Shown in pieces: positions 3,974-42,857 of a stretch of DNA of 64,000 nt (position 1 is the stretch's first letter; each line of letters starts with the position of its first letter). A program made the position numbers and the translations under genes. Where the stretch lies: assembly GCF_963676685.1 (NCBI RefSeq), contig NC_092356.1, positions 49,662,001-49,726,000 of the forward strand, given 5' to 3'. The notes under the pieces were generated by a model. The model was not told the DNA's origin. It did not search any database and was given only the letters and a program-made list of their open reading frames with translations. This DNA is from Mytilus edulis (Eukaryota).

Positions 3974-4239
3974 NNNNNNNNNNNNNNNNNNNNNNNNNNN
4001 NNNNNNNNNNNNNNNNNNNNNNNNNNNNNNNNNNNNNNNNNNNNNNNNNNNNNNNNNNNNNNNNNNNNNNNNNNNNNNNNNNNNNNNNNNNNNNNNNNNN
4101 NNNNNNNNNNNNNNNNNNNNNNNNNNNNNNNNNNNNNNNNNNNNNNNNNNNNNNNNNNNNNNNNNNNNNNNNNNNNNNNNNNNNNNNNNNNNNNNNNNNN
4201 NNNNNNNNNNNNNNNNNNNNNNNNNNNNCAAAAGGGAAA

Positions 4240-4306
4240 ATGTCGATATCGGGTGAAGAAGAAAACTACATGCGTAAAAAGACAAATCCAGGAACTACTC
4301 CTAAAG
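4240..4306 (+). other. Mini-exon copy 1 (MSISGEEENYMRKKTNPGTTPK-G), internally deleted paralog of HEPN-gene coding exon 1
   Basis: 67 bp from ATG to AAAG|gtaag, phase 1; matches MLSGEEENYMR and KKTN of exon 11805-12000. Confidence 0.75.
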
Positions 4307-5289
4307 GTAAGAACATTTTAAACTGAGGTATTCAATGCACACCTAGCTGTACATTATTCAGATAAAAGCACAGTAAGACAAAGAAATTTTACCTATGTCA
4401 TGTGTTTTGAATCTTTATAAACTAATTATAGAAAGAAAGACAAAAAGGAAAGTTTATGAAGAGAGAATTGAAAATTAAATTTTACTTTCTTTGAGACTAC
4501 ACAAAAGTCACATAATAGATTTAATTAACTGACCTAATTACAATTGGTTCATTCATGCGATGACCTCCAACTATTATCAAGGAAAATAACCATTTTGTAA
4601 ATATCAACTTTCATAATACTAATTAAAGTGACAGATCTATTTTAAAATTTTGTGTTTTCTAAGTCTTGGTGGTGATGACCTCATTTTGGAACAAACATCA
4701 TATTGGTGCTATTTTTGAAGATAGATGCAGGATTGGGCCTTGTTTAAATGAAAAATGAAATTTTGAATTTCCCCCCGCAAATTTTGGACAAATTTTTCTA
4801 TTCTTTGACCACATTCATTCACTGTCAGAAATAAATGCTAATCAAATATTTAATCCCAATCCAAATTCAGAAACGTTTCAAGCTTTAATACAGTGTCCAT
4901 ACTTTCCGAAACGGTTCATGCCGTGACCTCTGTGGTCGTATCAAGATGCGCCCAGTGCAGCATTTTATTGAAATTACCTTGAAGTTTGATATTTTTGTAA
5001 TTTTGTTTTGTTTTATATGAGTTATTTCTTACTATTCACAGTTTGTGTGTATGTTTGTATTTATGTATGTATTTACTGATATTTTTTTTGTCAGAAACAA
5101 ATGATCTATTGAATATTTTATCACAATATTTCAAGCTTAAATACATTGTCCATCCTTTCCCAAACGGTTCATGGCTTGACCTTTGTGGTCGTGTCAAGAT
5201 GCGCTCAGTGCAGCTTTTTATTCAACTTACCTTGAAGGTTGGTAAATTAGTAAATACCTACTAATCTTTTTATTTTTTAAAAAGGGAAA

Positions 5290-5356
5290 ATGTCGATGTC
5301 GGGTGAAGAAGAAAACTACATGCGTAAAAAGACAAATCCAGGAACTACTCCTAAAG
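5290..5356 (+). other. Mini-exon copy 2 (MSMSGEEENYMRKKTNPGTTPK-G)
   Basis: Preceded by tactaat, a T-tract and aag|ggaaaATG; followed by gtaag. Confidence 0.75.
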
Positions 5357-6831
5357 GTAAGAAAATTTTAAACCGTACAATATGATGTGGTAGTCAATGC
5401 ACAACTAGCTGTACGTTATTCAGATAAAATCACAGTTAGACAAAGAAAGTTTACCTATGTCATGTGTTAGCATCTTTATAAACTAATAATAGAAAGAAAG
5501 AAAAAAAATGGAAAGTTTATAAGAGAGAAATTGAAAATTAAATTTTACTTTCTTTGAGACTACACAAAAGTCATATAATAGATTTAATTAACTGACTTAA
5601 TTACAATAAGTTCATTCATGCGATGACCTCCAACTATTATCAAGGAAAATAACCATTTTGTAAATATTAACTTTCATAATACTAATTAAAGTGAAAGATC
5701 TATCTTAAAATTTTGTGTTTTCTAAGTCTTGTTGGTGATGACCTCATTTTGGAATACATCATATTGGTGCTATTTTTGAAGAAAGATGCAGGATTGGGCC
5801 TTGTTTAAATGAAAAATGAAATTTTGAATTTTTTCCCGCGAATTTTGGACAAATTTTTCTTTTCTTTGACCACACTCATTCTCTGTCAGAAATAAATGCT
5901 AATCAAATATTTAATCCCAATCCAAATTCAGAAATGTTTAAAGCTTTAATACAGTGTCCATACTTTCCGAAATGGTTCATGGCTTGACCTCTGTGGTCGT
6001 ATCAAGATGCGCCCAGTGCAGCATTTTATTGAAATTACCTTGAAGTTTGATGTTTTTGTAAATACTTTTTTGTCTATTATTTCTTGTGTTTTACATTAAA
6101 AGTTTTTATGTATATTTCTTTTATTAACCAATACGTGTAACAATGTACGAATGTGGTTTTTTTAAAATTTTGCAAGGCGTGTAACTGTTTACCAAAGCGT
6201 GTTTGTTCGTACTATTTATAAAAATAATGCCGTATAATAGATTTAATTGACTGACTTAATTACAATTAATTCATTCATTATCAAGAAAAAAATACATTTT
6301 TGATATCAACATTCATAATACTAATTTAAGTGACAGATTTATCATAAAATTTTGTGTTTCCTAAGTCTTGTTGGCCATGACCTTATTTTGTAGCAAACAT
6401 CATATTAGTGCCATTTTTTGAAGATAGATGCAGGATTGGGCCTTGTTTAAATGGAAAATGATATTTTGAATTTTCCCCTTGATTTTTTTACAATTTTTTC
6501 TATTCTTTGACTACATTCGTTGTCTGTCAGAANNNNNNNNNNNNNNNNNNNNNNNNNNNNNNNNNNNNNNNNNNNNNNNNNNNNNNNNNNNNNNNNNNNN
6601 NNNNNNNNNNNNNNNNNNNNNNNNNNNNNNNNNNNNNNNNNNNNNNNNNNNNNNNNNNNNNNNNNNNNNNNNNNNNNNNNNNNNNNNNNNNNNNNNNNNN
6701 NNNNNNNNNNNNNNNNNNNNNNNNNNNNNNNNNNNNNNNNNNNNNNNNNNNNNNNNNNNNNNNNNNNNNNNNNNNNNNNNNNNNNNNNNNNNNNNNNNNN
6801 NNNNNNNNNNNNNNNNNNNNNAAAAGGGAAA

Positions 6832-6898
6832 ATGTCGATATCGGGTGAAGAAGAAAACTACATGCGTAAAAAGACAAATCCAGGAACTACTCCTAAAG
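6832..6898 (+). other. Mini-exon copy 3 (same as copy 1; possibly allelic)
   Basis: Same 67 bp with gtaag donor. Confidence 0.7.
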
Positions 6899-7881
6899 GT
6901 AAGAACATTTTAAACTGAGGTAGTCAATGCACACCTAGCTGTACATTATTCAGATAAAAGCACAGTAAGACAAAGAAATTTTACCTATGTCATGTGTTTT
7001 GAATCTTTATAAACTAATTATAGAAAGAAAGACAAAAAGGAAAGTTTATGAAGAGAGAATTGAAAATTAAATTTTACTTTCTTTGAGACTACACAAAAGT
7101 CACATAATAGATTTAATTAACTGACCTAATTACAATTGGTTCATTCATGCGATGACCTCCAACTATTATCAAGGAAAATAACCATTTTGTAAATATCAAC
7201 TTTCATAATACTTATTAAAGTGACAGATCTATTTTAAAATTTTGTGTTTTCTAAGTCTTGGTGGTGATGACCTCATTTTGGAACAAACATCATATTGGTG
7301 CTATTTTTGAAGATAGATGCAGGATTGGGCCTTGTTTAAATGAAAAATGAAATTTTGAATTTCCCCCCGCAAATTTTGGACAAATTTTTCTATTCTTTGA
7401 CCACATTCATTCACTGTCAGAAATAAATGCTAATCAAATATTTAATCCCAATCCAAGTTCAGAAACGTTTCAAGCTTTAATACAGTGTCCATACTTTCCG
7501 AAACGGTTCATGCCTTGACCTCTGTGGTCGTATCAAGATGCGCCCAGTGCAGCATTTTATTGAAATTACCTTGAAGTTTGATATTTTTGTAATTTTGTTT
7601 TGTTTTATATGAGTTATTTCTTACTATTCACAGTTTGTGTGTATGTTTATATTTATTTATGTATTTACTGATATTTTTTTTGTCAGAAACAAATGATCTA
7701 TTGAATATTTTATCACAATATTTCAAGCTTAAATACATTGTCCATCCTTTCCCAAACGGTTCATGGCTTGACCTTTGTGGTCGTGTCAAGATGCGCTCAG
7801 TGCAGCTTTTTATTCAACTTACCTTGAAGGTTGGTAAATTAGTAAATACCTACTAATCTTTTTATTTTTTAAAAAGGGAAA

Positions 7882-7948
7882 ATGTCGATGTCGGGTGAAG
7901 AAGAAAACTACATGCGTAAAAAGACAAATCCAGGAACTACTCCTAAAG
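7882..7948 (+). other. Mini-exon copy 4 (same as copy 2), donor site disrupted by MULE insertion
   Basis: The exon ends ctcctaaag directly before the MULE TIR; the array resumes at 9539 with ataag instead of gtaag. Confidence 0.7.
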
Positions 7949-9529
7949 GGTTCATTCTGGCTATTCCTACATTATGAATTTTATAGGTAAAATACTAAAA
8001 TTTTATGTAGGAATAGCCAGAATGTTTATTTAAACAATGGGATTATGTAGGAAAATGTTGTAACAACACTAGACTAATTAATCAAGGTAAATCCAGGTAA
8101 ATCTTGTGGAAAATAAAGAAAAAGAATAGTTTATATTACAATATTTTATTTAATAATTTCATAGCACATATTTTGTAAATAATATTAACAAAACAAAATG
8201 AATTCATTGGCATAATGTTATTTGCAAGAAATTGCAATTATTTAAGTGCACATATTAATTTATGCAAGTAAATAATACCAATTGAAACATAAATTAAATT
8301 TTAATGATTATTCTTTGAATCACAGCACTAAATTTGATTTATACCTAACAGAGCACCAAACATACACAAAATTGACATTAAGCATACACTCACACAGTGA
8401 TGCATTGCACTGTCTTATAAATTGAATATACAAGAGACTACAAAGTCGTAATCGATGTACAGGACATAAAAAGCAACATGCATCTCCATACTCGACTGCA
8501 GTAAGCTCACAGTTTTGTAACCTTGTTTCAGTGTTTGCAGTCTGTAATCTATTGCCTTTTATTTTCTTTTTCTTGTAACACGTTTCCCACCGGCTCTGTA
8601 CTGGATAAGTTTGAGAACATTGAAGGCTTCTTTTTGTCTCAACAACTTGGTCATGCATGCTGAAGATAATTTTGTGAGGTGCCTCAACTAACTTCTTTAG
8701 TTTACTATGTCAGCCGTCTAGATGGTTTGTTGTTCTATGACCTTCTGTTGCGTAGTTAGTTGTTTTCTACCCAGGAGTAGGTTTCAAAGTCTGTAAAAAT
8801 AATGGTTAGGGTTGGTGTTGCTAATATCTGCATCATTGATGTCCCCCAGTGCGTTAAATCAAACATCTTCAACTGTATTGGGTGGTAAAAATGGTAGAAC
8901 TGCAGCTCTTCGAACAAGTTGGTGAATGTCGCCCTTTTCACTGTATTCAGTCTTTAAACCATGCTTCTGTGCAATCCTCCAGATACACTGAGTGTTGTGG
9001 AAAAAGGACCCTTTTCTATTGATTCTTGGAAAGATTGAGGCGACTGTGAAAAAGCTATTTTGTAGTCGAGGAACATCGCGGCTATTTGTAGTAGAATGTT
9101 GAAGGAAATTTTAAACCAGTTCAAAGTTAATAGCTTGGCTTAATCTATTAGGCCAATTTGTATTAATAATAATTATGTACTGTTAGCGTTACTTTTGATA
9201 ATATATTCATTTTAAAAAATCGTATTTTATTAAAAAAAAAAATGGCTTTTACTAATTTTTTATTTCTAGAAATTCTACAGTAATTGAGAAAAAAAAACAC
9301 TTAATTTTAATATTTGATGCATGTTTGCAAACAAACAAATTCCATTTTTTACATATACAAATACTTTTTATTTAATTTTCACATTTAAATTTACCTTTGA
9401 TCCAATTAGACATTCATGACTAAAACAATATATCTTTCAATAACAACATCTATTGTTCTTCCACTAATCCCCCATGTAGGAATAGCCAGAATAGTAAAAT
9501 ACAAAATGTAGGAATAGCCAGAAGACACC
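7949..9529 (-). mobile_element. Mutator-like (MULE) DNA transposon, defective deletion derivative
   Basis: TIRs ggttcattctggctattcctacatt / aatgtaggaatagccagaagacacc; 9-bp TSD ctcctaaag (7940-7948, 9530-9538). Minus-strand relic ~8620-9080 reads GSFFHNTQCIWRIAQKHGL..VRRAAVLPFLP..VEDV*FNAL and RTTNHLDG*HSKLK, matching the MULE CxxH and RTxNxxEGWH motifs with stops. Confidence 0.92.
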
Positions 9530-11804
9530 CTCCTAAAGATAAGAAAATTTTAAACCGTACAATATGATGTGGTAGTCAATGCACAACTAGCTGTACGTTA
9601 TTCAGATAAAATCACAGTTAGGCAAAGAAAGTTTACCTATGTCATGTGTTAGCATCTTTATAAACTAATCATAGAAAGAAAGAAAAAAAGGAAAGTTTAT
9701 AAGAGAGAAATTGAAAATTAAATTTTACTTTCTTTGAGACTACACAAAAGTCACATAATAGATTTAATTAACTGACTTAATTACAATTAGTTAATTCATG
9801 CGATGACCTCCAACTGTTATCAAGGAAAATAACCATTTTGTAAATATTAACTTTCATAATACTAATTAAAGTGAAAGATCTATCTTAAAATTTTGTGTTT
9901 TCTAAGTCTTGTTGGTGATGACCTCATTTTGGAATACATCATATTGGTGCTATTTTTGAAGAAAGATGCAGGATTGGGCCTTGTTTAAATGAAAAATGAA
10001 ATTTTGAATTTTTCCCCGCGAATTTTGGACAAATTTTTCTATTCTTTGACCACACTCATTCTCTGTCAGAAATAAATGCTAATCAAAAATTTAATCCCAA
10101 TCCAAATTCAGAAATGTTTAAAGCTTTAATACAGTGTCCATACTTTCCGAAATGGTTCATGGCTTGACCTCTGTGGTCGTATCAAGATGCGCCCAGTGCA
10201 GCATTTTATTGAAATTACCTTGAAGTTTGATGTTTTTGTAAATACTTTTTTGTCTATTATTTCTTGTGTTTTACATTAAAAGTTTTTATGTATATTTCTT
10301 TTATTAACCAATACGTGTAACTATGTACGAATGTGTTTTTTTTTAAATTTTGCAAGGCGTGTAACTGTTTACCAAAGCGTGCTTGTTCGTACTATTTATA
10401 AAAATAATGCCGTATAATAGATTTAATTGACTGACTTAATTACAATTAATTCATTCATTATCAAGAAAAAAATACATTTTTGATATCAACATTCATAATA
10501 CTAATTTAAGTGACAGATTTATCATAAAATTTTGTGTTTCCTAAGTCTTGTTGGCGATGACCTTATTTTGTAGCAAACATCATATTAGTGCCATTTTTTG
10601 AAGATAGATGCAGGATTGGGCCTTGTTTAAATGGAAAATGATATTTTGAATTTTCCCCTTGATTTTTTTACAAATTTTTCTATTCTTTGACTACATTCGT
10701 TGTCTGTCAGAANNNNNNNNNNNNNNNNNNNNNNNNNNNNNNNNNNNNNNNNNNNNNNNNNNNNNNNNNNNNNNNNNNNNNNNNNNNNNNNNNNNNNNNN
10801 NNNNNNNNNNNNNNNNNNNNNNNNNNNNNNNNNNNNNNNNNNNNNNNNNNNNNNNNNNNNNNNNNNNNNNNNNNNNNNNNNNNNNNNNNNNNNNNNNNNN
10901 NNNNNNNNNNNNNNNNNNNNNNNNNNNNNNNNNNNNNNNNNNNNNNNNNNNNNNNNNNNNNNNNNNNNNNNNNNNNNNNNNNNNNNNNNNNNNNNNNNNN
11001 NNNNNNNNNNNNNNNNNNNNNNNNNNNNNNNNNNNNNNNNNNNNNNNNNNNNNNNNNNNNNNNNNNNNNNNNNNNNNNNNNNNNNNNNNNNNNNNNNNNN
11101 NNNNNNNNNTTGAGCCCGCTCCCTCTTTTTGAAAGTCCGTTATTTTTTTGTTTCTTATTAAATGCCATGATTTTCGCGTTTCTGTATACTATAAAGAGGT
11201 TTGTAAAGGGTTATTTACGTGAAACGTGTTTTGCCTTTTTTATTTGTTATGCAGCCGTGTAATAGGTTCGTAATCCGCCGTGTTTCGTGAAATCCGTAAA
11301 AAGATCAACGTGCAAGGAATTGTTCGTTCATCGTGAAATGGCAATTGTATTTCGCGTTCTACCGATCAAATATCCCCCTTTTTTTACTCCCCTCTATGAA
11401 CATACGTATATTATAAATAAAGTGTATTTGCTATTAACTTTCAATTCCAAGTTTCTTCTCCACGGCGATCACTGGTATAAAATATTTGTATAAAGAGTCT
11501 CTATATATTTTAGGAGTATAATCATAGTACATGTAAACATGCAGAATAACGCGAAAATAATTGTCCTGTCCCCGAGAAACTACTGACGAAAATTATGTTT
11601 AAAAGTTAAAAACCGGAAGTCTTATCTTTGACTTAAAAGACGGTCTGATGACGAAAACAATATCTGGACGCCTTTACATAGTGTCTATACATTTATGTAG
11701 GACACAGAGGTATGATGAATACTTTATTGCGAAAGGTAGAGAAGCGAAACATAAAATGAGATTTTCTCGTTTAATAGTATAGATATATTTGTTTTAAAGG
11801 CAAC

Positions 11805-12000
11805 ATGTTATCGGGAGAAGAAGAAAACTACATGAGACTGTTCATGCTGCTTGATATTTGTAAAAAGGCAGTGAAAATATATTTTGATGAAGAGTTTGAT
11901 CCAAACCATTTGAATCAGACAATAAAGAAAGCAGGGCGCAAATTACTACAGCTGAAAAAGACAAATGTTCTTTCAGAGACACAGTGGATAATATTGCAAG
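11805..12000 (+). CDS. HEPN-STAND-ANK coding exon 1
   Basis: tttgttttaaag|gcaacATG ... CAAG|gtaggc; 196 bp, phase 1; MLSGEEENYMRL..AVKIYFDEEFDP..QW. Confidence 0.85.
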
Positions 12001-15000
12001 GTAGGCTTACTCATAATATTTTTCAATTTCTGTACAAAAATATACTGGCATTCAGAAACAAGGGCGTTTATATATATTAATGAACTATTCATTGTTGATG
12101 TTATTTTGGTTTGTAGAATCTGTCACCCTCGTCTCTTATCACCGGAAGAAAAACCTTATCGGAAATAAAAATTATAATAAATTTTTAACTCGAATCTAAG
12201 CTTTCTGATTTTCGAAAATCATACTGTAATCGTTTTTTTTTTATCTCAGAAATGAGAAGCAGAGAGTGATCAGTTTAAGTCAACCTAAAAAACCTAAGGC
12301 CCTAAGGCCAAAGATGACGACCACTCTGAAATCCCCCATAAAACTAAATATAGATGATATAATCCAATTAAGAATATATGATGTATGACACATTACTAGA
12401 CCAATAGAAAGACTGGACTGCAAAATTACATGACCAAATAAGGATGGGCCAGCGAGGAATTCTCCCCACCCAAAATATAGATAATATAATCCGATTAAAA
12501 ACGTATGACGTATGTCACATTTTTGAACCAATGAATAATCAGTTGCCAAATAAGGATGTTTATCAACCATAAATCAATCCATTTAAGGACATATTTGTTT
12601 TATCATATGATGAAATGCTTTATTATGAAATTAAATATATTTGACCAACTAAATCTATTGAATATTGAATAGTGGTAAAAGGAGCTGGAAATTAGGTAAA
12701 CCAGGTAAACCAGTGGAAAGAGAGCTATCATTTGATTTGTGTTCATTCTCAAAGGAGACTAGAATGGTTCAAACATCAGTAGATAATTCAAGAATTAAGG
12801 CAGCACTAAGGAAATCCATTTCATGGTCCATCTTTCATGCTTAAGCTTTATGGTTATCAGATGGGAACAAACTACCTGCAATGGCTGCCTTTTAATCTCT
12901 TTTTCACTAGCAAGCTTCATTTATTGCAATGAGACGACATTCATTGGACACTTATCAAAGAGCAATAAGGAAGCTAAATTGAGGTCAAACTCCCCTTGCG
13001 GCTTTAGACTAACCACTTTTTAAAGTAGCATCACTAATACAATGGAAGTGGCCTCTGATGAATAAGTGGGCTTGGAGATAGAATTTGTGGATGGACAAGT
13101 GTTTAGTATATAACCATGTTACATAATCCGGTACAGTAGATTCATTATTGAGGACTTCTCATTGTACATAATAATGTAGAGCACATCAAGTTACTGCATG
13201 CACACTTTACCGTTTATTGTCAAACACTTACTGCTGGTACATATATTCCTTGATTAATGGTAAGGTGATTTAAGAATTTGAAAGGTAGTGCTTGGAAAGT
13301 TCTAAAAATCTTTTCATTTTATATTAAAGTATTTTACCATGCGATTTGAATTAACAGTATTGGTATTCGTAAGGTATATGTATGTAATACTACCCTTTTT
13401 GTATATATAGAAGCTCTTGCAAATATTATTCCTTGTTTTTTTGCTTTGAATCACACTATAAACTGTGGGACCATTCATTAACGTGATATGCTTTATTTCT
13501 CGACATCAAATCAAGAAATTCAGATAGCATTCCTTGACTGAAATTGTGTGTTTTACCAAACAGAGAAAAAAATTCTGGCTTTTGACAAAACCAACGAAAA
13601 AAATAAAGCATGTTTTAAAACAGATGGTCGTGATGTTGGATTAAAGCGAAATCCAGGAGCACCTGGATTTCAGTTCATTGATTATGACATGCTCAAGAAA
13701 CATCAAATTATAGAAAGACTTAACATTCTGCAATGCCTTCACTAGTTGTGACATAGTGTCAATTATTTTTCAGAAGGATAAGAAATCAGAACCGGACCCA
13801 ATGTCCATTTATTATGAATCACGAGAAGCATTTTTTCAGATTTCAAAAATTCAGATAAAGTTGAAATATTAAACGTGGAAAAAAAATAAAGCAAGGCATG
13901 TTGTTCTTCTTTGTGGTCGGTCTAGTTTATTTAATAAACTGAGTGAATATAGAAGAAATCATACACACAGAAGACAAAAACAATTGACAATATTTCTCCG
14001 ACGCGACATGCACTACTTTGACACAGGAAACGCTGCGATGTAATGTTAAGAACGAATCCACTGTACTATACGAAATTATAATGATGTTCATGCAAATGCT
14101 TGAAAGCAGCATTATGTAACCGCTCACCAGACTGTGAGAGGGAAACTGTGCTAAATTTGATTTCCTACATTTGAATCTTATTTGATTATCAATAATTTTA
14201 ATGTGTTTCTTAAAGTAGTTATGCCAAATAATTATTTTTGATGCACCCGTTTTTATTTTCGCCCCCATCCAAATATAATACTTGTCTTATATTTTTGTAA
14301 GGTTTAATATATGTTTTTTATCGATACATTTTCGGAAGTCATGTAAATATTTACTAAAACTGAAAAAAAAATACAGCTTGTCAGAAACGCCATTATGTTA
14401 GGTATCGGCAATATGCATTTCATAGTTTATGTCTTCTCTTACATATATATAAAAGATTCGTTGGTATTGGTATCCAAATAAATGTTTTATCATTCATGGA
14501 GATATTTGTGTATAAAATTTACGCCTCATTATTAATGTACAAATTATTGTCGGCATTTTTCACGGCGCTATTATGAATTTTGCCGCCATTTTGAAAGCAT
14601 GTTCCCTGGTATTATTAATACACTGTAAACCTGTGTCTTCATCTCATGATCAGCTTCACAAATCTGTTATCTTTCTATTCATTATTGATAGAGAATATAT
14701 ATAAATTCCCTCAAACTTTGACACGTTGTACTTTGCCATTTTGAATTTAGACGCCATTTCGATTAATTTTATATTTCATGAAGTTTAAAACATATTTATT
14801 GATATGTCTTACATGTATTTCCTTAGTTTTGTGTTATCTTCTGGACTCTTACATATTGGTAGACTTTATCAAATGAGTGATGTTGTAATCTCTGTTCCTT
14901 ATGTCAGCCATCTTTGATTTGGCGGCCATTTTCAACTTCAACTACTGTTTATAAAGGCAACAGTAGTATACCGCTGTTGGAATTCATAAATCGAGAAAGA

Positions 15001-15317
15001 AACAAAAAATCAAGGTAACAGACTAAAACTTAGGGAAACACAGCAAATATAAGAGGAGAACTGATACACAACAGAAACACAACATTACAAACACAGAAAC
15101 GAACTATAATATAACAATGTCCATTTTCGTGACTTGGTACAGGAAATTTAAAAACAAAATGGTTTGTTGAACCTGGTTTTGTGGCATGCCAAACCTCCCG
15201 CTTTAATGGCAATGTAAAAAATAACATTCAAATGACACCATGATATGACTACAAAAAAATAAATGGGAGAACATAAAGGACAGAGAAACATACAAAAAAC
15301 AGCTAACAAAAGGTGCC

Positions 15318-16317
15318 AGGTTTAAAATTTGATACGCAAGACGCGCGTTTCGTCAACACAAGATTAACCCGAAAAGCTCTGATGAAAAAAGTTCCAAAGC
15401 AAAAACAAGTACAAAGTTGAAGAGCATTGAGGACCAAAAGTTCCTATTCGGCTAGGGTTTTCTGCCTGGGATAGAATTGAGGACCAAAAGTTCCTATACG
15501 GTTAGGGATTTCTGCCTGGGATGAGAACATCCTTTTTATTTAGAATATTTCATACTTTTGCAGACAGAATTTTTTTTATAAAATGACTATATAATTGATA
15601 TAAATGATAAAACCGGTGGCTGACTTTAAAATAAAAATGTATAGATGAATAACCTAAACCAGCATATAAAAATTCACAGCCACGTTAGCCAAATCGATAA
15701 ACTCACAAGTTTAAGTGACGTCACATTGAATTTCTAAACATTTCCCAACAATAGGATAGAATTAGGAATTAGGATTAGATTAGTTTTGTAAGGTTGATAT
15801 AGTTATCAAAGGTACCAGGATTATAATTTTGTACGCCAGACGCGCGTTTCGTCTACATCGTCTACATCGCATCAGTGACGTTCATATCAAAATATTTGTA
15901 AAGCCGAACAAGTAAAAAGTTGAAGAGCATTGAGGATCCAAAATTCCAAAAAGTTGTGCACAATACATCTAAGGTTATCTATGCCTGGGATAAGAAAATC
16001 CTTAGTTTTTCGAAAAATTCAAAGTTTTTTTAAAAATGACCACATTATTGATATTCATGTCAACACCGAAATGTTGACTAGTGGGTTAGTGGTACACTCG
16101 GGGACGAAACGTCCACCAGGAGTGGCATCGACCCAGTGGTGTAAATAGTTATCAAAGGTACCAGGATTATAATTTAGTACGCCAAGCGAGGGTTTCGTCT
16201 ACATAAGACTCATCAGTGACGCTCAATATTTATAAAGCAAAACAAGTACAAAGTTGAAGAGCATTGAGGATCCAAAATTCCAAAACGCTGTGCCAAATAC
16301 ATCTAAGGTAATCTATG
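15318..16317 (-). mobile_element. Cluster of retrozyme-like repeats: ~1.5 tandem units with 346-bp period (15801 and 16147) plus a diverged relative at ~15318-15630; hammerhead motifs degenerate
   Basis: agttatcaaaggtaccaggattataattt recurs at 15801 and 16147, each followed by a mutated reverse-complement hammerhead core. Confidence 0.8.
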
Positions 16318-16586
16318 TTATCGCTTTTTTGTTCGTTTTTCCTTTAATCTTTTTTTGTGATAATTTTTCATATCATGCCACTCGCTTGAGATGGAAAATT
16401 ATCGCTAGAAACTAAGAAAGCACAAGGCGTTGCTAACGAAATTGACATGAAATTGAAAACGTCGTCATAGGTAAAATAGCGATAAACAGATTATCATTGG
16501 TCATCTCAACTCGATTGCCTTTTTCGCTTTCGCCGTCCCGGCTCATGCGAGAAAATCAATCTCGTTGAGATGATCAACGATAATCT
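16318..16586. mobile_element. Non-autonomous fold-back element (short IR bracket plus ~100-bp hairpin)
   Basis: ttatcgct (16318) ... agcgataa (16478-16485); hairpin agattatcattggtcatctcaac ... gttgagatgatcaacgataatct (16488-16586). Confidence 0.7.
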
Positions 16587-16990
16587 ATAAATATAACATT
16601 AATTAAAGGGGCACTAGCTACGAGATATATAAAAAAAATAATATCATCCTTATTTGCTCTACAATAATGAAATGCAAATAGTGAAATGATAATTAACATT
16701 TAGCAGCCAGTATGGTTCAATTTTGTTGAATTAAGCTAATAGACAGAAAAAATATTACAGTCATTTCTTATAATTTAATTCTAAATAAACCGTAGAAAAC
16801 CATGAAAAAACGTTGAAGACGTCACGGTCACATGACTAAATTATGGCTATGGGCTCATAACAAAATAACGTCAGCCAATCAGAATACGCGTTACATCCAA
16901 AACTAAATTATATAAAAATAAAAATAAAATTTCTCATTTATATGTAACAATAATTAGTTAAATATTACATGGAAAGGAGACCAAAATTTT

Positions 16991-17948
16991 TCACACACTT
17001 GGACTATTTTTCTCTGCAATATAATGTCCAAGAACTTGGTATTTCTTTATTCTATTCTTTAACCCAACCATATTTGGTTTTATTTCATTTAATTTACATT
17101 TGTATATATAATTCTTTGTAATTATGACTAACAGATTCAGTAATAAACTTTCATGTTTGCAACCAAGAAACACATTCTCTTTGTTAAGAACAAAGTTTAC
17201 AAAAAAAAGATTTACTACATTTGGAAAAGACTGCCACAAATATCACCATTATCAGGCTTATCCAAATCTTACTTTTAACAGTTCTCTTTAAGGCATTTTT
17301 TCATATATCGAGGGATTCTTGAAATCAGACCATGATATTTGATAAAATTGTTGATTTTTACTCTTTCTTGAAAATGCTCAAATTTATAAAAATTCATATT
17401 TTCTTTATTATTTAAGGTCACTTACTGACTGCACATCTCCTTGTTTCCATTGAATATAATATGGGAAATCATCCAAAGAAGAAAAGTTCAAAATATCTAA
17501 TGATAAAATGTCACTGACAGAATTCTCAGTATTAGGTTTTGCTATAGAAAAGCATAGTAAAACAGCCTTCCAGAAAGGATTTTTACATCTTTTAGAAATC
17601 TCAATCAGCTTTTCTTTCTGTAGATGTAAAACCCTTTCACCCCATACTTTGTGAGGTCTGCCAGTAACAACTTCTGCCAGCCACCAAGTGGGTTTGACAT
17701 CAGTCTTTTTATCCAACTAATTTTTAAATAGATGTTAAAGGAATGAAGATGTACCATATTAAGTCCACCTTGTGAAAAATCACAAAGTGTGTTACGCTTA
17801 ATTCTGTCTGGTTTGATCCTTGGATACATGGAAAAGGTCCACAGGTATATGTAATATCCAATTTGGACAGTTTTTGAGGATGTATACCAAACGTTTCGCA
17901 TCCATATTGGAATAGGACATATATCTTTCCATTGAGGCAACACATCAT
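16991..17948 (-). mobile_element. Degenerate LINE (L1/Tx1-like) ORF2 3' relic
   Basis: Frameshifted pieces IKRNTLCDFSQGGLNMVHLHSFNIYLKISWIKRL, NPFWKAVL and LLNLLVIITKNYIYKCK resemble the post-RT region of L1/Tx1 ORF2. Confidence 0.75.
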
Positions 17949-20900
17949 TTTTTTAATAAATGAAATAAAACCCTTATCTTGGGGATATTGTTTCTAATGG
18001 TGGTAACCATGGAAACTAAAAAGTTAAAATTGCACATTTTTCCACTTTCTTGAACAAATACATTTGTAAATGTAATTGAAAGTTGACTTATAATTCATTT
18101 ACTCTTGAATTACCTTTAAATAATTATTTACAAGAGAAATACACTTAATATCATTTAATAGGTATGTTGCTATGGAAACAAGGCTGCCAAAACAATTATT
18201 TTTGTCAAAAAATGTAAACATTTGTAAAATCTGCAAATTTAAAAATTAAACACAAAAATAAAACAAGTTCAGTAACAAAATGGCATCATACTGACTAACG
18301 TTTATAAACGTCTATTTCGTTTTCGACGGATCAGTAACAGTGTATGATGATTTTAACACCATAAATGCCAAGAATCATTATTACTTTCTTTCAGGTGTTT
18401 ATTAGTTTATTTGTTACATAATAAAATAAATAATGATACAGAGTGTAAGGTACGCTAGCACTGTCATTAGTTTATTCTTATAAACAAGTTGCTCATGATA
18501 ATTCTAATTGAAAAATCGAAAAATCTAAATTTCGGTCATTTTCGTAACAAATAAACTGTAATATTTACACAAAGTGACTAAAGTACTGGTATTCTATTGA
18601 TTAACTGTTAGTAACACAATGATTTCACTATAACAATATACACTTAATTTTTGTTTTTAAAGTTTTACTTTAAACTGCAACCATTTCAGTATACGCCGAA
18701 AAGTTTTAATAATTTCGATTAAAAAATACGCCAAAATTAAACCCGCCAAAATTGTTCGTTTACCTTATTGCCCCAAAATCGCTAAATTTTAAGCCAAAGA
18801 AAATAACCCGCTAGACGATAATTCAATATAGTATTGTTTTTATTTGGACTTTGAATAAAACTATCATGGTCGAGTGAGACAACATCTATAAGAATGCAGG
18901 ATGCGAAATCCAAACCTAAAAGAATTTGCATTTAGACTTTGATTTCATAAATCCTATAATAGATAATTGATGAAAAATGGGAATGTGAACTGCTGGGGTT
19001 ATCGTTCGTATCACAATTTGAATTACCAACGAGTTGGGTCTCCCTTTGCTTGGATTTCTTAGACCATACGGAAATCAGAGTAACAACTTTTCCCATACCT
19101 CAATCAGTAGAAGTTTTGAATGAAGATATCGCAGACATCGTATATTAAAAACCAAGTTACCTCAAAGTAACCAGATACGATCTGTATTTAATCAAATTAA
19201 TCTAGAGAGACGCAAACTTCAACTTCCATCACCTGAAATATAACCACCAGTTTTGCTTGCTGCACTTTTGAAAGAAACCTATAAAACATTGAATAAAACA
19301 TGCAGAAAAGGTGAAGATGTTCAGTTTCAACCCTAGCCGTAGCTTTTACTCTTGATCTCACGATCGTAGAAGACATATATGAAAACCAAACATGCCCAAA
19401 AGCAGAAGTACCTCTTTTGAGAGAATACTGCGAAGTACCTATGTAGCAGCAACAACAATACTTTGATTTTAATCATACGTTTACAATGATCGTGTCTGCA
19501 CCGACACGCTACACGTAAAGAGGGTGTGCCAACTATGCACAGAGAGGATCGTGCGGTTGAACATGATATTGCAGCCACTATATAGAGAAATACAGTGCTA
19601 CTGCGAGTGACATCCATTTTGATAGGCTTCGTCTCAATTTCATACTCTATTAGTCAATCAAAAATATTTGTGTTTTGGTCTGTTTCTTAGATACTTTAAG
19701 CAATAGACCTGTATTTTGTGTATTTAATAGTTCTGAAATGTACACGTTTGACTTATATGTTTCATCTGACTTATTGCTTAGTTCATAGTTCAACTGTCAA
19801 AGTTCAGTATGCTTGTTTTGGTTCATTTCTCAGTTACCATATTCAATATTTGAACGATATAAAGTGATGTAATTTATAAGGTACACATATGTCACTTACA
19901 CTTCATTTCCATGGTTCCTTGAACAATCATATTATGTTTACATGGTTAAGTCGGACTTTTGTTTTAAACTTCAAGCAATAGGCAAGGTATAATTCGGGTA
20001 TGGAATGATTGTAATTTGTATATGTTTATCTATAAGGTATTATTTGAACTTGAACATATTTCATTGTTTATTGTTCAATATTGAGTATTTTTGTTATCAT
20101 GTGCGATGAACAATAGAAAAACTATATTTAGTATATTGATTGATTGTTAGTTTTAAACATGTTTTCTCCTTACAGGTAATCTGAACTTAAACTCGTTTCT
20201 ATAGTTCATTGGTCATGTTAAATTAGATGGTTAAGTCTTTTTTCGTAAGAGGTCATTTTCTGTTAGAAGGTTTGAACTGATCTTAAACTCATACCATTGA
20301 TAACGTTGTATGCTCTAATTCATTTGTCAGATACTTTAAGCTACTACATGTAAGTAAACTATATTTTGAATTATTTTTATATGTGCATGTCTGTCTGTGT
20401 GCAATATCTGACCTAAACCGAATTTTCATGTGAAAATTATGAAACAGCTGTACATGTGTAAGGAGAGACATTTTAGGTGTGAGTTCTTGTTATCAGTAAG
20501 TAGGTCAGTGACATACTAATGGTTTAGGGAGGCTAAAGGGTATCACTTCCTAATATCACATCTCCCATTAACAAACCAAATTAAAAAGATACACTTCTAG
20601 ACTACGAATAGCCAATTAATCAACACAATATAAAGACGCCCCTAGATTTTGATCTGTATGTTTTGGCTACATGTATATCACACTACTTATTGTTATCCAT
20701 ATTATTCACTTTTGTAAGATATTTGATCTTCCATACATTTTTCTGGTAACTTTCTGGTAAGGATTTTATTGACCTAAATACAGTTGAATAGCTTATCTTA
20801 TTTGCGGATTGGTGTATATGGTAATTGAATTTTGAGTTTTGGAAGTTTTTAAAATTTGAATTTAGATATGAATCGGTGTGATTTGAATTGAAAACTTTGG

Positions 20901-21027
20901 TCCTTGAATCTAGGCGAACTGATCTGTATGTGTGTTAGTAGCGATATCAGAAAAAAACCAGATGTATCGTTAGATAGCTAATGTTTTCATTGACAACATT
21001 AGATAACTTGCAATTATTGAATTTCAG

Positions 21028-21248
21028 GAAACAAGTTAGATTCATCAGATTTTGACATCCCATTGATGATCTGTCTTCTACGAAATTTGGCTGATCTACC
21101 TATCAGTGATTTAATGCCACTTGAATCTCAGAGGAAACCAACTGACGAATTGACGAGAATAAAATTCTACAGAAATGCCATCGTCAATGGAAACAGAAGT
21201 AATCTTTCAGATGAACGTTTTCTAACAAATTGGAATACTATTTGTAAG
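21028..21248 (+). CDS. HEPN-STAND-ANK coding exon 2 (DZIP3-like HEPN core)
   Basis: tttcag|GA AAC AAG ... TGT AAG|gttagt; GNKLDSSDFDIPLMICLLRNL...RIKFYRNAIVNG...WNTICK. Confidence 0.9.
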
Positions 21249-23317
21249 GTTAGTTGGTTTTCAATTTAAACGAACGCTTGTACATGCTTTATACAATACT
21301 AATCATTGTATTATAAATGCAAAATTGTTAAAATGTATTGTAAAAAAAATTTCAATTTTTCGTATACCTTTGGATTGAGGCGTGGAAAAATAATTAATTT
21401 AATGGAAGTATTTATTTTCACCTTCTTCATTCTCTTAACAGGCCAGAGTTATTCCATTGGTTTTTCAATTGAATTGTCAAATATCTTTCATGTTTGGGCC
21501 ATAAAAACCGCCTAAATAGTATGGGGTTTTGTCATTGTTGAAGGCCGTATGGTTGCATATGATTTCTTTACAAATTCACTGCATTCGTACTTTCACTTAC
21601 AGTTGTCTCAATTATGCCACATCTTCGTATCTCTATACATGATATTTTATTCATAATCGTTTAAAAAATTATTTAAACGTTGCATCAATAATAGCCGGTA
21701 GATAAAATTAAGTATCTTGTAGTAAAATTTAAAGATAGTGTCATTTAAGGTTCAAAAAGTCTTATTGTAGCCTGAGGAGAGAATGCAGGAAGTAAAAAAA
21801 TAATGCTCTCATATATATTTTGAAGGGTTAAAAGCAATTCTTTAGTACATGCCAATAAAAGCTTAATTATAACCGCTAGAAACACTTATGTTCAGTATGT
21901 AACATTAAGGGGGATTTTTCGGGAGTGAACACCATATTAGATCTTCCGATTCTGGCTGGAAATTTTGAAGGTCCAAATATTAGGAAACGTTTTGATAGCA
22001 AAATAAAACTTACTGGACAAACAAAATGACAGGATCTTAAGGACATATAATTTATCCTTACCCTGAGGTCCAGGTAAATTAACCCCTAAAGTAAAAATAA
22101 GGTATGTTTGTTTTTCTCAATATTGTATGCCGTATAGACTTTACTCTGGTCGCCAGTTGTCTTATTGGCAATGCTACTAAATCTTCATATTTTTATCCTT
22201 TAATGTGTCTAACTTATCAGACAGCAAGAAGAGAAATGGTGCTGTTTCATTTTCCAGACTTGAACGAAAATAATGCACATCAAAATTATTTTTGTATTTT
22301 TTACAATGCCTAAACTCTAACAGATTCTAACATTTAATTATATCTAATGTACATTTTTGTTGTGAAAAAACACAGCCTTTATGAATGTCAACACCTGATT
22401 AAATTATGAAGGACCTAAGCAGGGTTCAGAAGTTTCTCATAAATGGGAACTGTCTCCGTCTTTCGTTATTATACCCAATATTGGGTATCAATTAACTATG
22501 TTTAGAGTTCATAATAATTAAGTTCATGACTCAAGCATTCTTAAAAATGGCAATAATTTAAACATTAAGACCAAAATTAAGTTGAGAATGGTATTTAATA
22601 ATAATTGCTTTTCAAAATGTTACTTTTTGAAGTCTATTAATTTTATCCAGGTGATATTTCATTTATAGTGTGTTTGGGTCAAGATGTTGGAATTTACATA
22701 AATCTAACTACCATGGCAGACAATACCTTGAAATTATGTTTTTATCACTGAGTATTGATATCGGTTTTGGGGCATAACCACTGTACATGTACATAGGAAT
22801 AACACACATTTATTCTTTCCAAACCTGTTAAACCAAATCCCTTTTTCAAATGAAATGATCTTTCTCTCATTAAATGTGAAAACGCGGAAATAAATTATGT
22901 GACACTACCTATATGAAATATTTATGGTTTCATATGAAAACTTAATACCCGCTGAAATACTTATAGTATTGAAAGTTTGAGATTCTAAGTCAATTCGATG
23001 GGCATGAATTACACAGCAACTACTGCTAAATTTCCACATGCACTACAACATTATGAATTCACGAGAAGAGTTACTTTAATTATATGTGCGATTTGATTGT
23101 CAATGTGATCATCATCCACCAGAAACAAATATACGTGGATTTAAGCAACTATAAGTTACTGTATAGCCTTCAACAACATAGGAAATAATTAGAGTACAAG
23201 CGATAGCTTCACTCTCAAATGTCTCATTTCACTCACTAATGAAGTTCGAGACATCTGTGATTACTTTTATTGTTAACTCTTTAATAGTTATCAAAGGTAC
23301 CAGGATTATAATTTAGT

Positions 23318-23361
23318 ACGCCAGACGCGCGTTTCGTCTACATAAGACTCATCAGTGACAC
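23318..23361 (-). ncRNA. Minimal type I hammerhead ribozyme inside retrozyme fragment 23283-23409
   Basis: Minus strand reads GUGUCA-CUGAUGA-GUCU(UAUGU)AGAC-GAAA-CGCGCG-UC^UGGCGU: full core, stems I and II, palindromic stem III. Confidence 0.88.
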
Positions 23362-23617
23362 TCAAATCAAAATATTTATAAAACCAAACAAGTACAAAGT
23401 TGAAGAGCAATATCTTTTAGTCTTATTATTTAATCTAAATGTATTTTATCTTTTCCTTATAAAATGCAACAAACATTATTGAATGGGCTGCCTTATAACA
23501 ACGTTGTGGTAATACACAGAAAAAAATTCAGAAGGTAAGGTTCATGGTTATTGCATGAAAATTAATCATAAGTCTTATGATATCGATTTATTCCTCTAAT
23601 GTTACCATTCTTTTAAG

Positions 23618-23825
23618 TCAATACAAGGGCTATCAGATGAGTTATTTGAAGAATGTGAGAGCTTACATGTCACAGGTCTGGATCTTCTAAACAAAGATAT
23701 AAAAATCTGCATCCAAAATGCATTTAAAGAATTGTCAGAATTCAATACGTTGCATGAGAAACTTAAGAAAGAATGGGAAATACAAAAAGAAAGGAAAACC
23801 AATCCAATTCCTCCAAATCTAAGGG
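23618..23825 (+). CDS. HEPN-STAND-ANK coding exon 3 (end of HEPN plus coiled-coil linker); not in the ORF track
   Basis: ttttaag|TCA ATA CAA ... CTA AGG G|gtaagt; open frame SIQGLSDELFEECESL...HEKLKKEWEIQKERKTNPIPPNLR. Confidence 0.85.
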
Positions 23826-24784
23826 GTAAGTTTAGTTGTTTTTAAAATTTGAATTGTGGTTTTCTCATAGAACAGTTTTTTATTCCCAATGTCTTTATCA
23901 AAAGGACTGATATTGTACCCAATGTATGAGTATTTACGATACCAGATGATTTCATGACTTCCTTCTTATCGACTGAACTGTCTTTTTTTTTTTTTTAAAG
24001 ACTTTTATTATTCAAAACAAGATGAAGATTTTTACATTTTTTACCCGAACAAAATCTAGGAAGAACAGAGCAAAGAAACAAATTTAACATATTTAGCTTA
24101 TTCTACCTATTAAGACATTTACACAGCTTATAGTATAGACACTTTTTTTTTTTATCAAACAACGTTAGCGCCCAATAATTAAAAAAAATCATTGTAAGAC
24201 GTTACAAAAGTTGTTCATACTTTCGGAAAAAGTCATGAAAGTAGCCAATTAAAATAATTAAATTAATGTACAACGATATACTATCTAAATCGACGTATGT
24301 CTCCGTATTACATGAGATACCAGGATAGAAATATTGCATTTGCGCAAAATGCACTTTTCTTCTACAAAAGACTATTTAGTGACGCTCGATCGAATCAATA
24401 AAGTTAAAAAGGCCAAAAAAAGAACGAAGTTGAAGTGCATTGAGGACTTCAAATTCCTTAAAGTTTTGCAAAATACTGTCAAGGTTATCTCTTCCTGAGG
24501 TAAGATATACTTTTGTAAACTAAAGAAGTTGCAAAAGTGGTCTGTTTTTAGGTGGAAGGTCAAGTATGTCCGAGGTTCTAATCATGTGGTACTGAGGAAA
24601 GAACTAGCAATTTCTTAGATTTCAGATTATTTTCTTTAGACTAAATATAAGACGAAGTATAATGATATTTTAATTTTATTAGGATTAATTAAGATATTGT
24701 ATTATGCATTGTAGAATAATTGTATACACACTCCTTAATGGTCGTATCTGAAAAAGTTACAATCGTTGAAATCTTCTTTTATAG

Positions 24785-26558
24785 TAAAAATTGATAAGAA
24801 GTTGAAAAGTTGGAAAGAAGAAACTGACAATTTTTTTGTAAGTACTAAAGGATCTAAGGCAGTCATTGAATCGATTAAAGAAGAACCATGTGTAGCTGTT
24901 ACCGGAAGTTTTGGAATTGGCAAAACTGCAGTCATCCGTAACGTAGCTTTATTAATGCGTTCAAATGGTTATATTGTCGTTCCTGTGACAGATCCTTCGG
25001 AAATAAAAAAATACAAACATCCTTTAGAGAAAAATTTATTTGTAGTCGATAACTTTTGCGGTATATGTGATTTAGTGGAGGAAGAACTTGAAGCCTGGAA
25101 CAATTGCGGTGTTGAGTTTGATGAAAAATGTAAACTATTAGTATCGTGCAAACTTCAGGTTTACAGAGCAATACGACATGAATCACTGAATAACATTACT
25201 TTTCATGAATGTAATTTGATTTCAAATGATATATGTCTGTCTCTAGATGAAAGACAATCAATCGCTAGAAAATATGATATCAACATACTTGAAATTATTG
25301 ACTATATCGAATATTTTAACTGTTTTCCCCTTTTGTGTAATAATTTCACTATTGAAAAAATTGATAACGCACAAGATTTTTTTAAACACCCGTTTGAAGT
25401 GTTCGAAACACAGTTTGAAATGTTACAGGCTCTAGGTGCCAATGGTAAAGTTTGTGCATTAATGATCTTATTAATGTTTCCGAAGCTATGATAACGGGAG
25501 ATTTAAATTGGGACGTGAAATATATAATAGCAAATACAAGCAAAGCCTGTAAATTAGGTACGGAGGATTCATGTATCACAATACACAAAGAACTTGATAA
25601 CTTGATCGATACATATGTAGTGAAGAAAGACGGAGTTTATCATGCTCTAAATGAGAGGATATTCAATATAGTACTCCATTATTTTGGTCACGATATGACA
25701 GTACCACTAATAAGTTATGCTTGCCCAACCTTTATAAGAGAAAGGTTTCAGCTATCAAATCCGTTAACGAATAAGGAAGATTACAAGATTTTACGATGTG
25801 CGGATGGGATAGAAAATTCAAATGAGTTATTGTCGTGTAAAACATGGGACAAAATTGGTCTCAATGCAGTTGTTTTATGTAGTATCGAAGATCGTAAACC
25901 TTATGTTAATCGAATGCTTTCGGATTGGTCGAAAGGATTTGTGAATGATACTATTAGAAATCCAAATTTCTATCACTTTTTTTTCTTTCAATTCTTAATT
26001 GGTAAAGGTGAGATTGAAATCGGTCAGTTATTGAAAAAAAAAGACATAATTGATGGCTCGACACCTTTGATTGCAATCTGTGCGCTTATAGACTTTCATT
26101 TTGCAGACAAATGTTACGATATTTATTTGAAATGGTTAATTGACAATGGGTGTCCCATAAATGGAATCAATAAGAAAGGTCAGACGTCCATTTTTTACGC
26201 TGCAATACATGGTAAGAGTAAATTGGTAAATATTCTTATCAATCATAAAGCCGATACTAATATATGCACAACTGAAGGACATTCACCATTATTTATAGCC
26301 TGTCTGAACGGTTATTGTAAAATAGCAGATATTGTACTCATTTCCGGAGCTAACTGCAATGTGAGAACAACTGAAGGAAATACACCATTGCACGCTGCTT
26401 GTTTAAATGGACATATTTCTATTGTGAAAGAATTACTTAAACGCAATGCAGATTTAAGTATAAGAAATAACGTCTGTGTGACAGCACTCGATCTTGCTCG
26501 TCTTAATGGGCATCATGATATTGTGCAAGAGATAATTAAACACTCTTATACAAATTAA
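24785..26558 (+). CDS. HEPN-STAND-ANK terminal exon (nSTAND3-type NTPase, helical region, ankyrins), split by a frameshift
   Basis: tcttcttttatag|TA AAA ATT matches phase 1; ORFs 24766-25491 and 25452-26558 overlap in different frames. Confidence 0.88.
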
Positions 26559-36374: not shown

Positions 36375-36410
36375 GTTGAATTATTTTTATATTGGTTAAT
36401 GTTTAAAATT

Positions 36411-36434
36411 CTATATAAGGTCTTGATAAGAAAG
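36411..36434 (-). promoter_or_regulatory. TATA-like plus GATA block upstream of C1qDC gene A
   Basis: ctatataaggtcttgataagaaag lies 37-60 bp 5' of the ATG; a similar block precedes gene B. Confidence 0.5.
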
Positions 36435-37235: not shown

Positions 37236-37555
37236 TGACTCTGAGCTTATGCATCCCATCATAGTTTGAACGACAAAATTATTTTATTTATTTATATTAT
37301 TTTTACTTATGTATCTTGTCATACTTTGAATGACAAATTTATTTTATTAATACTACTTTAACTGTTAAGTCTGTTTTTTTGTTATATCTATTTTACGTGA
37401 CTCTGTACTTATGTATCCCGTCATACTTTGAACCACACTATTATTTTATTTATTATTATTACTTTTACTGTTAAGTCTGTTTTTTTGTTATATCTATTTT
37501 ACGTGACTCTGTATTTATGTATCCCGTCATACTTTTAACGACAAAATTATTTTAT
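37236..37555. repeat. Minisatellite, ~3.5 imperfect units (up to 106 bp)
   Basis: gtgactctgta(c/t)ttatgtatcccgtcatacttt recurs at ~37235, 37397 and 37503. Confidence 0.8.
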
Positions 37556-42811: not shown

Positions 42812-42857
42812 TATAGGAAAAGTTTACTGTTATGACATGTTTGTAGATATATATTCA

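What the first reader, a model, noticed from the sequence alone, without database searches (positions are those of the whole stretch)
11805..26558. Animal HEPN-STAND-ankyrin gene with an effector/switch/sensor layout like NLR and prokaryotic Avs defence proteins
Seen: four phase-consistent exons join a DZIP3-like HEPN domain, a coiled-coil, a P-loop NTPase and C-terminal ankyrins. Known: STAND NTPases with an N-terminal effector and a C-terminal repeat sensor underlie NLR and Avs immunity, and HEPN domains are RNases activated on dimerisation. Inference: this family may be an uncharacterised bivalve intracellular sensor-RNase system, here lying next to C1qDC pattern-recognition genes.
Basis: partly seen in the sequence, partly recalled or inferred. 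Interest (0 to 1): 0.8.

Follow-up and report, generated by a model that had tools for sequence, protein, structure and literature searches.

The report
Disabled allele of mussel NLR-like gene
This spliced mussel gene joins an RNase-type domain, a nucleotide switch and ankyrin repeats like hundreds of relatives that likely act as intracellular immune receptors, but this copy is cut short by a 13-base deletion and lacks the histidine predicted to be needed for cutting RNA.

Summary
The four exons are real and phase-consistent. Pfam confirms HEPN_DZIP3, nSTAND3 and ankyrin, and transcript-like contigs join the exons. This copy is broken, which the finding did not say. A 13-nt deletion at 25479 stops translation after 443 aa, before the ankyrins. 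It is in read-based contigs of two samples and absent from three other studies, so it is likely a segregating null allele. The HEPN motif is RNAIVN, whereas 29 of 29 paralogous exons keep the histidine. The genome holds at least 150 related nSTAND3 exons. The layout is not new: HEPN+nSTAND3+ankyrin is listed for oyster in the supplement of PMC8195603, and HEPN-NACHT receptors are described for pearl oyster and cnidarians. The scan noted this family three times before on other DNA. What is distinctive: the gene is this genome's only member of an 11-sequence subclade with an altered switch (Walker B DD to DN/KN, sensor-1 Arg to Lys/Gln). Its HEPN and stalk exons vary 3-8 times more than the terminal exon. 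Truncated exon-1 copies upstream may splice it to a second HEPN gene with a TRADD-N-like exon. RNase and immune function remain untested.

The parts
4235..4306 (+). 72-nt phase 1-1 mini-exon, truncated tandem copy of exon 1 (copy 1 of 4)
   Evidence: peptide present in RefSeq isoform P0014
5285..5356 (+). 72-nt mini-exon, copy 2
   Evidence: peptide present in P0001 and P0014
6827..6898 (+). 72-nt mini-exon, copy 3
7877..7948 (+). 72-nt mini-exon, copy 4, splice donor lost
   Evidence: these four are the only matches in the genome
11800..12000 (+). Exon with ATG at 11805; first helices of the DZIP3-like HEPN domain; preceded by an AG acceptor
   Evidence: covered by contigs of X8 and X16; HEPN_DZIP3 match starts here in P0014
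21028..21248 (+). Exon 2, HEPN core
   Evidence: PF18738 E 4.1e-12; joined to exon 3 in X17
21171..21188 (+). HEPN motif RNAIVN: Asn in place of the conserved His
   Evidence: His in 29 of 29 paralogous exons
23618..23825 (+). Exon 3: last HEPN helix and long helical stalk (predicted coiled coil)
   Evidence: helix 168-202 in the model of relative P0009
24785..25491 (+). Terminal exon, first frame: nSTAND3 NTPase (Walker A 24904-24927 intact; Walker B 25039-25062 DN; sensor-1 25135-25158 Lys), helical domain, premature TGA at 25489-25491
25479..25480 (+). Site of the 13-nt deletion that shifts the frame
   Evidence: X4 has 13 more letters here; X1 and X2 match the window; X8 and X17 contigs are 13 nt longer across it
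25492..26558 (+). Terminal exon, second frame (not translated in this allele): winged-helix-like region, helical region, about five ankyrin repeats, stop 26556-26558
   Evidence: 94% identical to intact P0003

Best explanation
This is a real, spliced HEPN-nSTAND3-ankyrin gene of a Mytilus mussel, one of at least 150 related loci that likely act as NLR-like intracellular sensors with a built-in predicted RNase, and the allele in this window is truncated by a 13-nt deletion and lacks the HEPN histidine, so it is likely a null allele. Shown: exon structure, domains, splicing in other animals, the deletion and its presence or absence among samples, motif losses, family size. Inferred for intact family members, by analogy to NLRs and Avs5: the ankyrin region holds the NTPase closed; ligand binding allows nucleotide exchange and oligomerisation; the stalk brings HEPN domains together to form an RNase site; RNA is cut and translation stops or the cell dies (about 60%). 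Inferred for this locus: intact alleles belong to a small subclade with an altered Walker B and sensor-1 and probably switch poorly. The locus is likely under relaxed or fluctuating selection, one step in the birth-and-death turnover of the family.
For: Domains. Splicing. Deletion present in contigs of X1 and X2, absent in X4, X8, X17 and in protein P0003. At least 150 nSTAND3 and 150 HEPN exon matches in the genome. 55 of 150 nSTAND3 hits have a HEPN exon within 30 kb upstream on the same strand, against 6 downstream and 0 on the other strand. His kept in 29 of 29 paralogous exons and R-x4-6-H in 36 of 40 HEPN stretches of database relatives. His is essential in tested HEPN RNases (PMC3710099). 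A confident model of intact relative P0009 (pLDDT 90.2, pTM 0.71) shows helical bundle, stalk, five-stranded NTPase, helical and winged-helix-like elements, ankyrins. Avs5, with an nSTAND3 NTPase, is activated by assembly (PMC11897194).
Against: No experiment on any member was found (7 paper searches). The stop lies in the last exon, so the mRNA would likely escape nonsense-mediated decay (recalled rule), and a 443-aa product could be made and have an effect. I could not see whether the intact alleles carry His or Asn: the difference table showed 40 of 488 rows, and one search found no other protein with this exon 2. In this locus the terminal exon is the least variable part (2.0-2.7% against 7-17%), the reverse of the usual fast-evolving sensor. 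One raw RNA run (X23, about 6% read) had no reads on the bins wholly within exon 4. RNA status of X8, X16 and X17 is the tool's guess, though their contigs skip introns. The link to Avs5 rests on a shared Pfam family only.
Confidence: 0.72

Rival explanations
1. Intact alleles of this locus encode a non-catalytic partner or decoy. The altered switch and inactive HEPN let it bind a ligand or pathogen inhibitor and regulate catalytically active paralogs, like sensor NLRs of plant pairs.
For: Subclade of 11 sequences, SH support 100, stem 0.62. Walker B DN/KN in 11 of 11 against DD in 142 of 157 others; sensor-1 K/Q in 11 of 11 against R in 152 of 157. Named members come from four Mytilus species. 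One copy in this genome. HEPN and stalk exons differ most among alleles or orthologs, 14 of 18 changed codons non-synonymous in X8 exon 1.
Against: The nearest full-length subclade members P0009, P0010 and P0020 keep the His. 14 of 18 is about what neutral change gives. A null allele segregates. No partner gene lies within the 20 kb downstream or 80 kb upstream that were read.
Confidence: 0.15
2. The true gene starts 26 kb upstream of the window and encodes two HEPN domains, a zinc-insert one with an intact motif and this inactive one, with an optional TRADD-N-like exon, so the N-terminal HEPN would be the effector.
For: RefSeq models P0001/P0014 join them in frame through 63- and 72-nt phase-1 mini-exons. 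The upstream motif is RNFLSH. A TRADD-N-like exon lies between (Atlas lead 0.87-0.89 on homolog P0023). An X16 contig ends 5' of exon 1 in five letters that match the mini-exon end. Oyster proteins have TRADD-N+HEPN+nSTAND3+ankyrin.
Against: No other protein with both parts among 10 hits. Homologs of the upstream gene end in Death, OTU or HEPN, not nSTAND3. The model uses a cryptic donor and skips the TRADD-N-like exon, as read-through would. P0009 starts at the exon-1 position.
Confidence: 0.2
3. The frameshift is an assembly error and the gene is intact in this animal.
For: Three other runs lack the deletion.
Against: Independently assembled read contigs of X1 (depth 10.7; may be the window's source) and X2 (depth 78.5, another sample) match the window letter for letter across the site.
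Confidence: 0.04
4. The family has a non-immune role, such as an RNA-binding or stress scaffold, and the NLR layout is incidental.
For: No functional data. Some HEPN domains are non-catalytic RNA binders (PMC3710099).
Against: Large tandem expansion, His conservation across paralogs, pseudogene turnover (stops inside 9 of 150 hits) and the published domain contexts fit conflict systems.
Confidence: 0.1

Closest known systems
Bivalve TRADD-N + HEPN + nSTAND3 + ankyrin proteins (Kaur et al. 2021, PMC8195603; C. virginica LOC111112665 and LOC111114647)
   Same: Same HEPN+nSTAND3+ankyrin string (6 of 17 nSTAND3 rows in supplement file 4). nSTAND3 was defined there as the STAND of bivalve TRADD-N proteins. 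Immune/apoptotic role proposed.
   Different: The oyster rows carry TM and cysteine-rich N-termini because that paper searched from TRADD-N. The Mytilus genes mostly start at HEPN. The Mytilus expansion and this subclade are not in its main text ('Mytilus' 0 hits).
DZIP3/hRUL138-like HEPN + NACHT + LRR/TPR/WD40 NLR-like proteins of pearl oyster and cnidarians (PMC9646362, PMC8260672)
   Same: N-terminal DZIP3-like HEPN on a STAND NTPase with C-terminal repeats; lineage expansion; RNase role proposed; 194 of 202 pearl-oyster HEPNs have R-x4-6-H.
   Different: The NTPase here is nSTAND3, not NACHT (no NACHT hit for this gene); the repeats are ankyrins; this allele is broken.
Bacterial Avs5 (SIR2-nSTAND3-repeat sensor; PMC11897194, bioRxiv 10.1101/2025.07.08.663546)
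   Same: NTPase of Pfam family nSTAND3; effector-switch-repeat order.
   Different: SIR2 NADase effector and TPR-like sensor. No AVAST model hit in PADLOC and no Avs5 chain in a profile search of PDB sequences. Avs5 keeps the sensor-1 Arg that this subclade lacks.
RNase L (ankyrin-pseudokinase-KEN/HEPN)
   Same: Ankyrin sensor controlling a HEPN-type RNase in one animal protein (PMC3710099 table; activation by dimerisation recalled).
   Different: Opposite domain order, kinase instead of STAND, KEN family rather than DZIP3.

Membership tests
DZIP3/hRUL138-like HEPN (PF18738) | Profile match above cut-off | tested here: met
   46.6 bits against 27 for exon 2
Active HEPN RNase | R-x4-6-H motif | tested here: not met
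   RNAIVN in this allele; met in 29 of 29 paralogous exons and in P0009, P0010, P0020
Active HEPN RNase | RNA cleavage | not testable with these tools
   needs biochemistry
nSTAND3 (PF20720) | Profile match above cut-off | tested here: met
   60.3 bits against 27.2
STAND NTPase switch | Walker A GK[T/S] | tested here: met
   GSFGIGKT
STAND NTPase switch | Walker B with two acidic residues and sensor-1 arginine | tested here: not met
   DN and Lys here and in the subclade; DD in 142 of 157 and Arg in 152 of 157 other family members. Labelling this column sensor-1 follows the TT/SR motif of PMC11897194 and recalled STAND anatomy.
STAND NTPase switch | Helical domain and winged helix after the NTPase | tested here: inconclusive
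   Secondary structure of the P0009 model fits, but fold searches returned only ankyrin matches; this part is lost in the window's allele
NLR-like tripartite receptor | Effector, STAND and repeat sensor in one reading frame | tested here: not met
   Not in this allele; met in P0009, P0010 and, by length, in the X8 contig
NLR in the strict sense | NACHT or NB-ARC plus LRR | tested here: not met
   No NACHT, NB-ARC or LRR hit at E 0.1
NLR-like tripartite receptor | Ligand-induced oligomerisation | not testable with these tools
   needs experiment
Avs5 / AVAST | SIR2 effector and AVAST profile match | tested here: not met
   PADLOC gave PDC-S73 (E 1.4e-8) and generic ATPase hits, no AVAST model
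Bivalve TRADD-N + HEPN + nSTAND3 + ankyrin proteins | TRADD-N in the same polypeptide | tested here: inconclusive
   TRADD-N-like exon 13 kb upstream of the window: no Pfam hit, Atlas lead under 0.9, skipped by the RefSeq models

The most novel reading that the evidence does not exclude
Mussels carry hundreds of Avs5-type (nSTAND3) receptors that cut RNA when their ankyrins are triggered. This locus marks a conserved Mytilus subclade that has rewired the switch (Walker B DN, no sensor-1 Arg) and diversifies its HEPN and stalk rather than its sensor. It would act as a decoy or brake on the active RNase receptors, with null alleles segregating in populations.
Probability: 0.15. Interest if true: 0.6.

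Novelty: new member of a known kind. Interest (0 to 1): 0.32.

Why it matters
If intact members are ligand-gated RNases, bivalves have a large intracellular receptor family that NACHT-based NLR surveys miss and whose switch belongs to the same Pfam family as bacterial Avs5. That is testable with intact paralogs. This particular copy is a poor entry point, since it is truncated and lacks the catalytic histidine. Its value is as a natural null allele and as a pointer to a subclade with an unusual switch, a built-in comparison for how these receptors are controlled.

Tried and rejected
Single-sequence fold of P0009 failed (pLDDT 36.7); the alignment-based fold worked. Foldseek and VIA searches of that model were filled by ankyrin proteins and did not test the HEPN or NTPase parts. 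A complex prediction of two copies of the HEPN-stalk region gave no verdict. A profile of the NTPase region found only P-loop-level matches in PDB sequences, best E 5e-4, and no relatives in prokaryotic genome contigs (124 pattern matches, 0 confirmed). No ortholog protein with exon 2 was found (1 hit among 24 candidates), and an exon-2 DNA pattern found nothing in metagenome contigs, so the His/Asn state of intact alleles is open. X7 contigs stop around the break and do not bridge it. The C1qDC link was rejected as unsupported. The IQ-TREE run did not finish; the tree is FastTree with SH-like support and a midpoint root only. Scan look-ups by place and by sequence returned nothing.
Full report
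Observation. The four exons are at 11800-12000 (ATG 11805), 21028-21248, 23618-23825 and 24785-26558, with GT..AG introns and consistent phases. Pfam gives HEPN_DZIP3 in exon 2 (E 4.1e-12), nSTAND3 in the first frame of exon 4 (E 2.4e-16) and ankyrins in a second frame (E 4.4e-32). The spliced CDS is 2399 nt and stops after 443 aa; 13 more nt would give 803 aa. RefSeq proteins labelled Mytilus edulis (P0001, P0014) are identical over these exons and end at the same stop.

Splicing and the break. Four of 24 listed runs were laid on the whole gene and four on exon 4. One X8 contig of 2301 nt holds pieces of exons 1, 3 and 4. The spacing is 46 nt at exon 3-4 (46 expected) and 264 nt between exons 1 and 3 (255 expected; no exon-2 piece is listed). 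An X17 contig joins exon 2 to exon 3 directly. X4 has 13 extra letters after 25479; X8 and X17 contigs are 13 nt longer than the window across this site; an X16 contig has 30 gap letters over a longer stretch, not resolved. X1 (may be the window's source) and X2 (another sample, same study) match the window exactly. Protein P0003 reads through the site and is 94% identical downstream. So the deletion is a real allele and other animals have an open frame. RNA status of X8, X16 and X17 is a guess by the tool; raw run X23 gave no reads on the bins wholly within exon 4.

HEPN motif. The motif here is RNAIVN. All 29 other genomic exons fetched have His at this place (30 of 150 hits fetched). Among database relatives, 40 HEPN stretches in 38 proteins were scored: the script counted 35 with His, and one more (P0173) is R-x5-H by eye. 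One of these 36 is the upstream HEPN of P0001. The exceptions are this gene, P0045, P0049 and P0079. PMC3710099 (passages) reports the His essential in RNase L, RloC and PrrC, and notes that some motif-less HEPNs still bind RNA or are toxic. The state of intact alleles of this locus is unknown.

Family. The genome gives 150 scored matches (of 451 candidates) to the nSTAND3 exon, best paralog 44% identical, and 150 (of 272) to exon 2; both lists are capped. 55 of 150 nSTAND3 hits have a HEPN exon within 30 kb upstream on the same strand, 6 downstream, 0 on the opposite strand. 684 representatives at 50% clustering match at E 0.001 or better. An alignment-based model of intact relative P0009 (50% identical region; pLDDT 90.2) shows a helical bundle, a long stalk helix, a five-stranded NTPase, helical and winged-helix-like elements and ankyrins. 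Fold searches tested only the ankyrins.

Subclade. Of 186 NTPase rows, 168 were kept (18 covered under 170 profile positions). Eleven, including this gene, form one branch (FastTree SH 100, stem 0.62, midpoint root). All 11 have DN or KN for the Walker B DD (DD in 142 of 157 others, DN in 7) and Lys or Gln for the sensor-1 Arg (Arg in 152 of 157). Named members are from M. edulis, M. galloprovincialis, M. coruscus and M. trossulus. This genome shows no second member. PMC11897194 (passages) describes the TT/SR Arg as the gamma-phosphate sensor important for activation, so these proteins are inferred to bind nucleotide but switch abnormally. Differences from the window are 7-17% in exons 1-3 and 2.0-2.7% over exon 4 in X8 and X16. 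These runs may be other species or recombined paralogs. 14 of 18 changed codons in X8 exon 1 are non-synonymous (20 of 24 differences listed), which does not separate neutrality from selection.

Upstream. Four 72-nt mini-exons (4235-7948) lie in a local tandem duplication and derive from the start of exon 1. The RefSeq models use one or two of them to join this gene to exons 13-26 kb upstream of the window that encode a Cys/His-rich insert HEPN with an intact RNFLSH motif. That upstream gene has its own TRADD-N-like exon, which the models skip. Its homologs end in Death, OTU or a second HEPN, and none of 10 hits carried both parts. Fusion or read-through is unresolved.

Mechanism. For intact members I infer an NLR/Avs-type cycle: closed nucleotide-bound monomer, ligand binding at the ankyrin region, oligomerisation, HEPN pairing through the stalk, RNA cleavage. 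None of these steps is shown. This allele would give a 443-aa product without sensor and without catalytic His, most likely non-functional.

What is known. PMC3710099 (passages) lists DZIP3-like HEPN fused to ankyrin and NACHT with expansions in oyster. PMC9646362 (passages) describes more than 50 HEPN-NACHT genes in pearl oyster and proposes RNase-based immunity. PMC8260672 (passages) reports 17-83 such genes in anthozoans. PMC8195603 (passages; supplement searches; file 4 was cut when stored and file 13 not searched) defines nSTAND3 from bivalves and lists TRADD-N+HEPN+nSTAND3+ankyrin proteins in C. virginica. Avs5 has an nSTAND3 NTPase (passages). PMC13581612, PMC7653742 and PMC6835236 were seen as passages only. 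Seven searches found no paper that describes the Mytilus expansion or tests a member; the library lacks most subscription journals, and unseen supplements may hold such lists. Three earlier notes of this scan concern the same family; I did not use them as support.

Verdict. Real gene, known kind of architecture, function untested, this allele disabled. The subclade with an altered switch is the one point that I did not find described. Interest 0.32.

Noticed in passing
G000:C13:49635821-49648973 (13-26 kb upstream of the window; L063, L062): Gene with a Cys/His-rich insert HEPN (RNFLSH intact), coiled-coil exons, three 63-nt repeat mini-exons (two with mutated donors) and a TRADD-N-like exon; Mytilus homologs end in Death, OTU or a second HEPN.
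   Followed up: partly
window 4230-10700: Local tandem duplication (alternating spacings of about 1050 and 1540 nt) carrying four truncated exon-1 copies; the fourth is interrupted at its donor by an insertion of about 1.6 kb (7949-9530).
   Followed up: partly
window 35067-42823 (-) and 61662-62156 (-): Two C1qDC genes with signal-peptide/coiled-coil exons (36102-36380, 42269-42823) and C1q exons (35067-35366, 39534-39995), and a third C1q exon at 61662-62156.
   Followed up: partly
window 48544-60012 (+): Multi-exon alkaline phosphatase gene (PF00245 hits at both ends).
   Followed up: no
window 2976-3695 (-): 239-aa ORF that looks like a reverse-transcriptase fragment of a retroelement (recalled resemblance; no Pfam hit).
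   Followed up: no
window 19662-20025 (intron 1): Strongly and strand-specifically covered in raw RNA run X23 (about 1000 reads joining 19685 to 19998 with 37 other letters between), probably a repeat transcribed from another locus.
   Followed up: no
window 15800-16300, 23280-23410, 24390-24480: Copies of a high-copy interspersed repeat in introns 1-3, with very high depth in all runs.
   Followed up: no
L004, L010, L012 and others (alignment A2): Many paralogs have Ala instead of the first Gly of Walker A (AxxGxGK[S/T]): 11 of 19 aligned rows.
   Followed up: no
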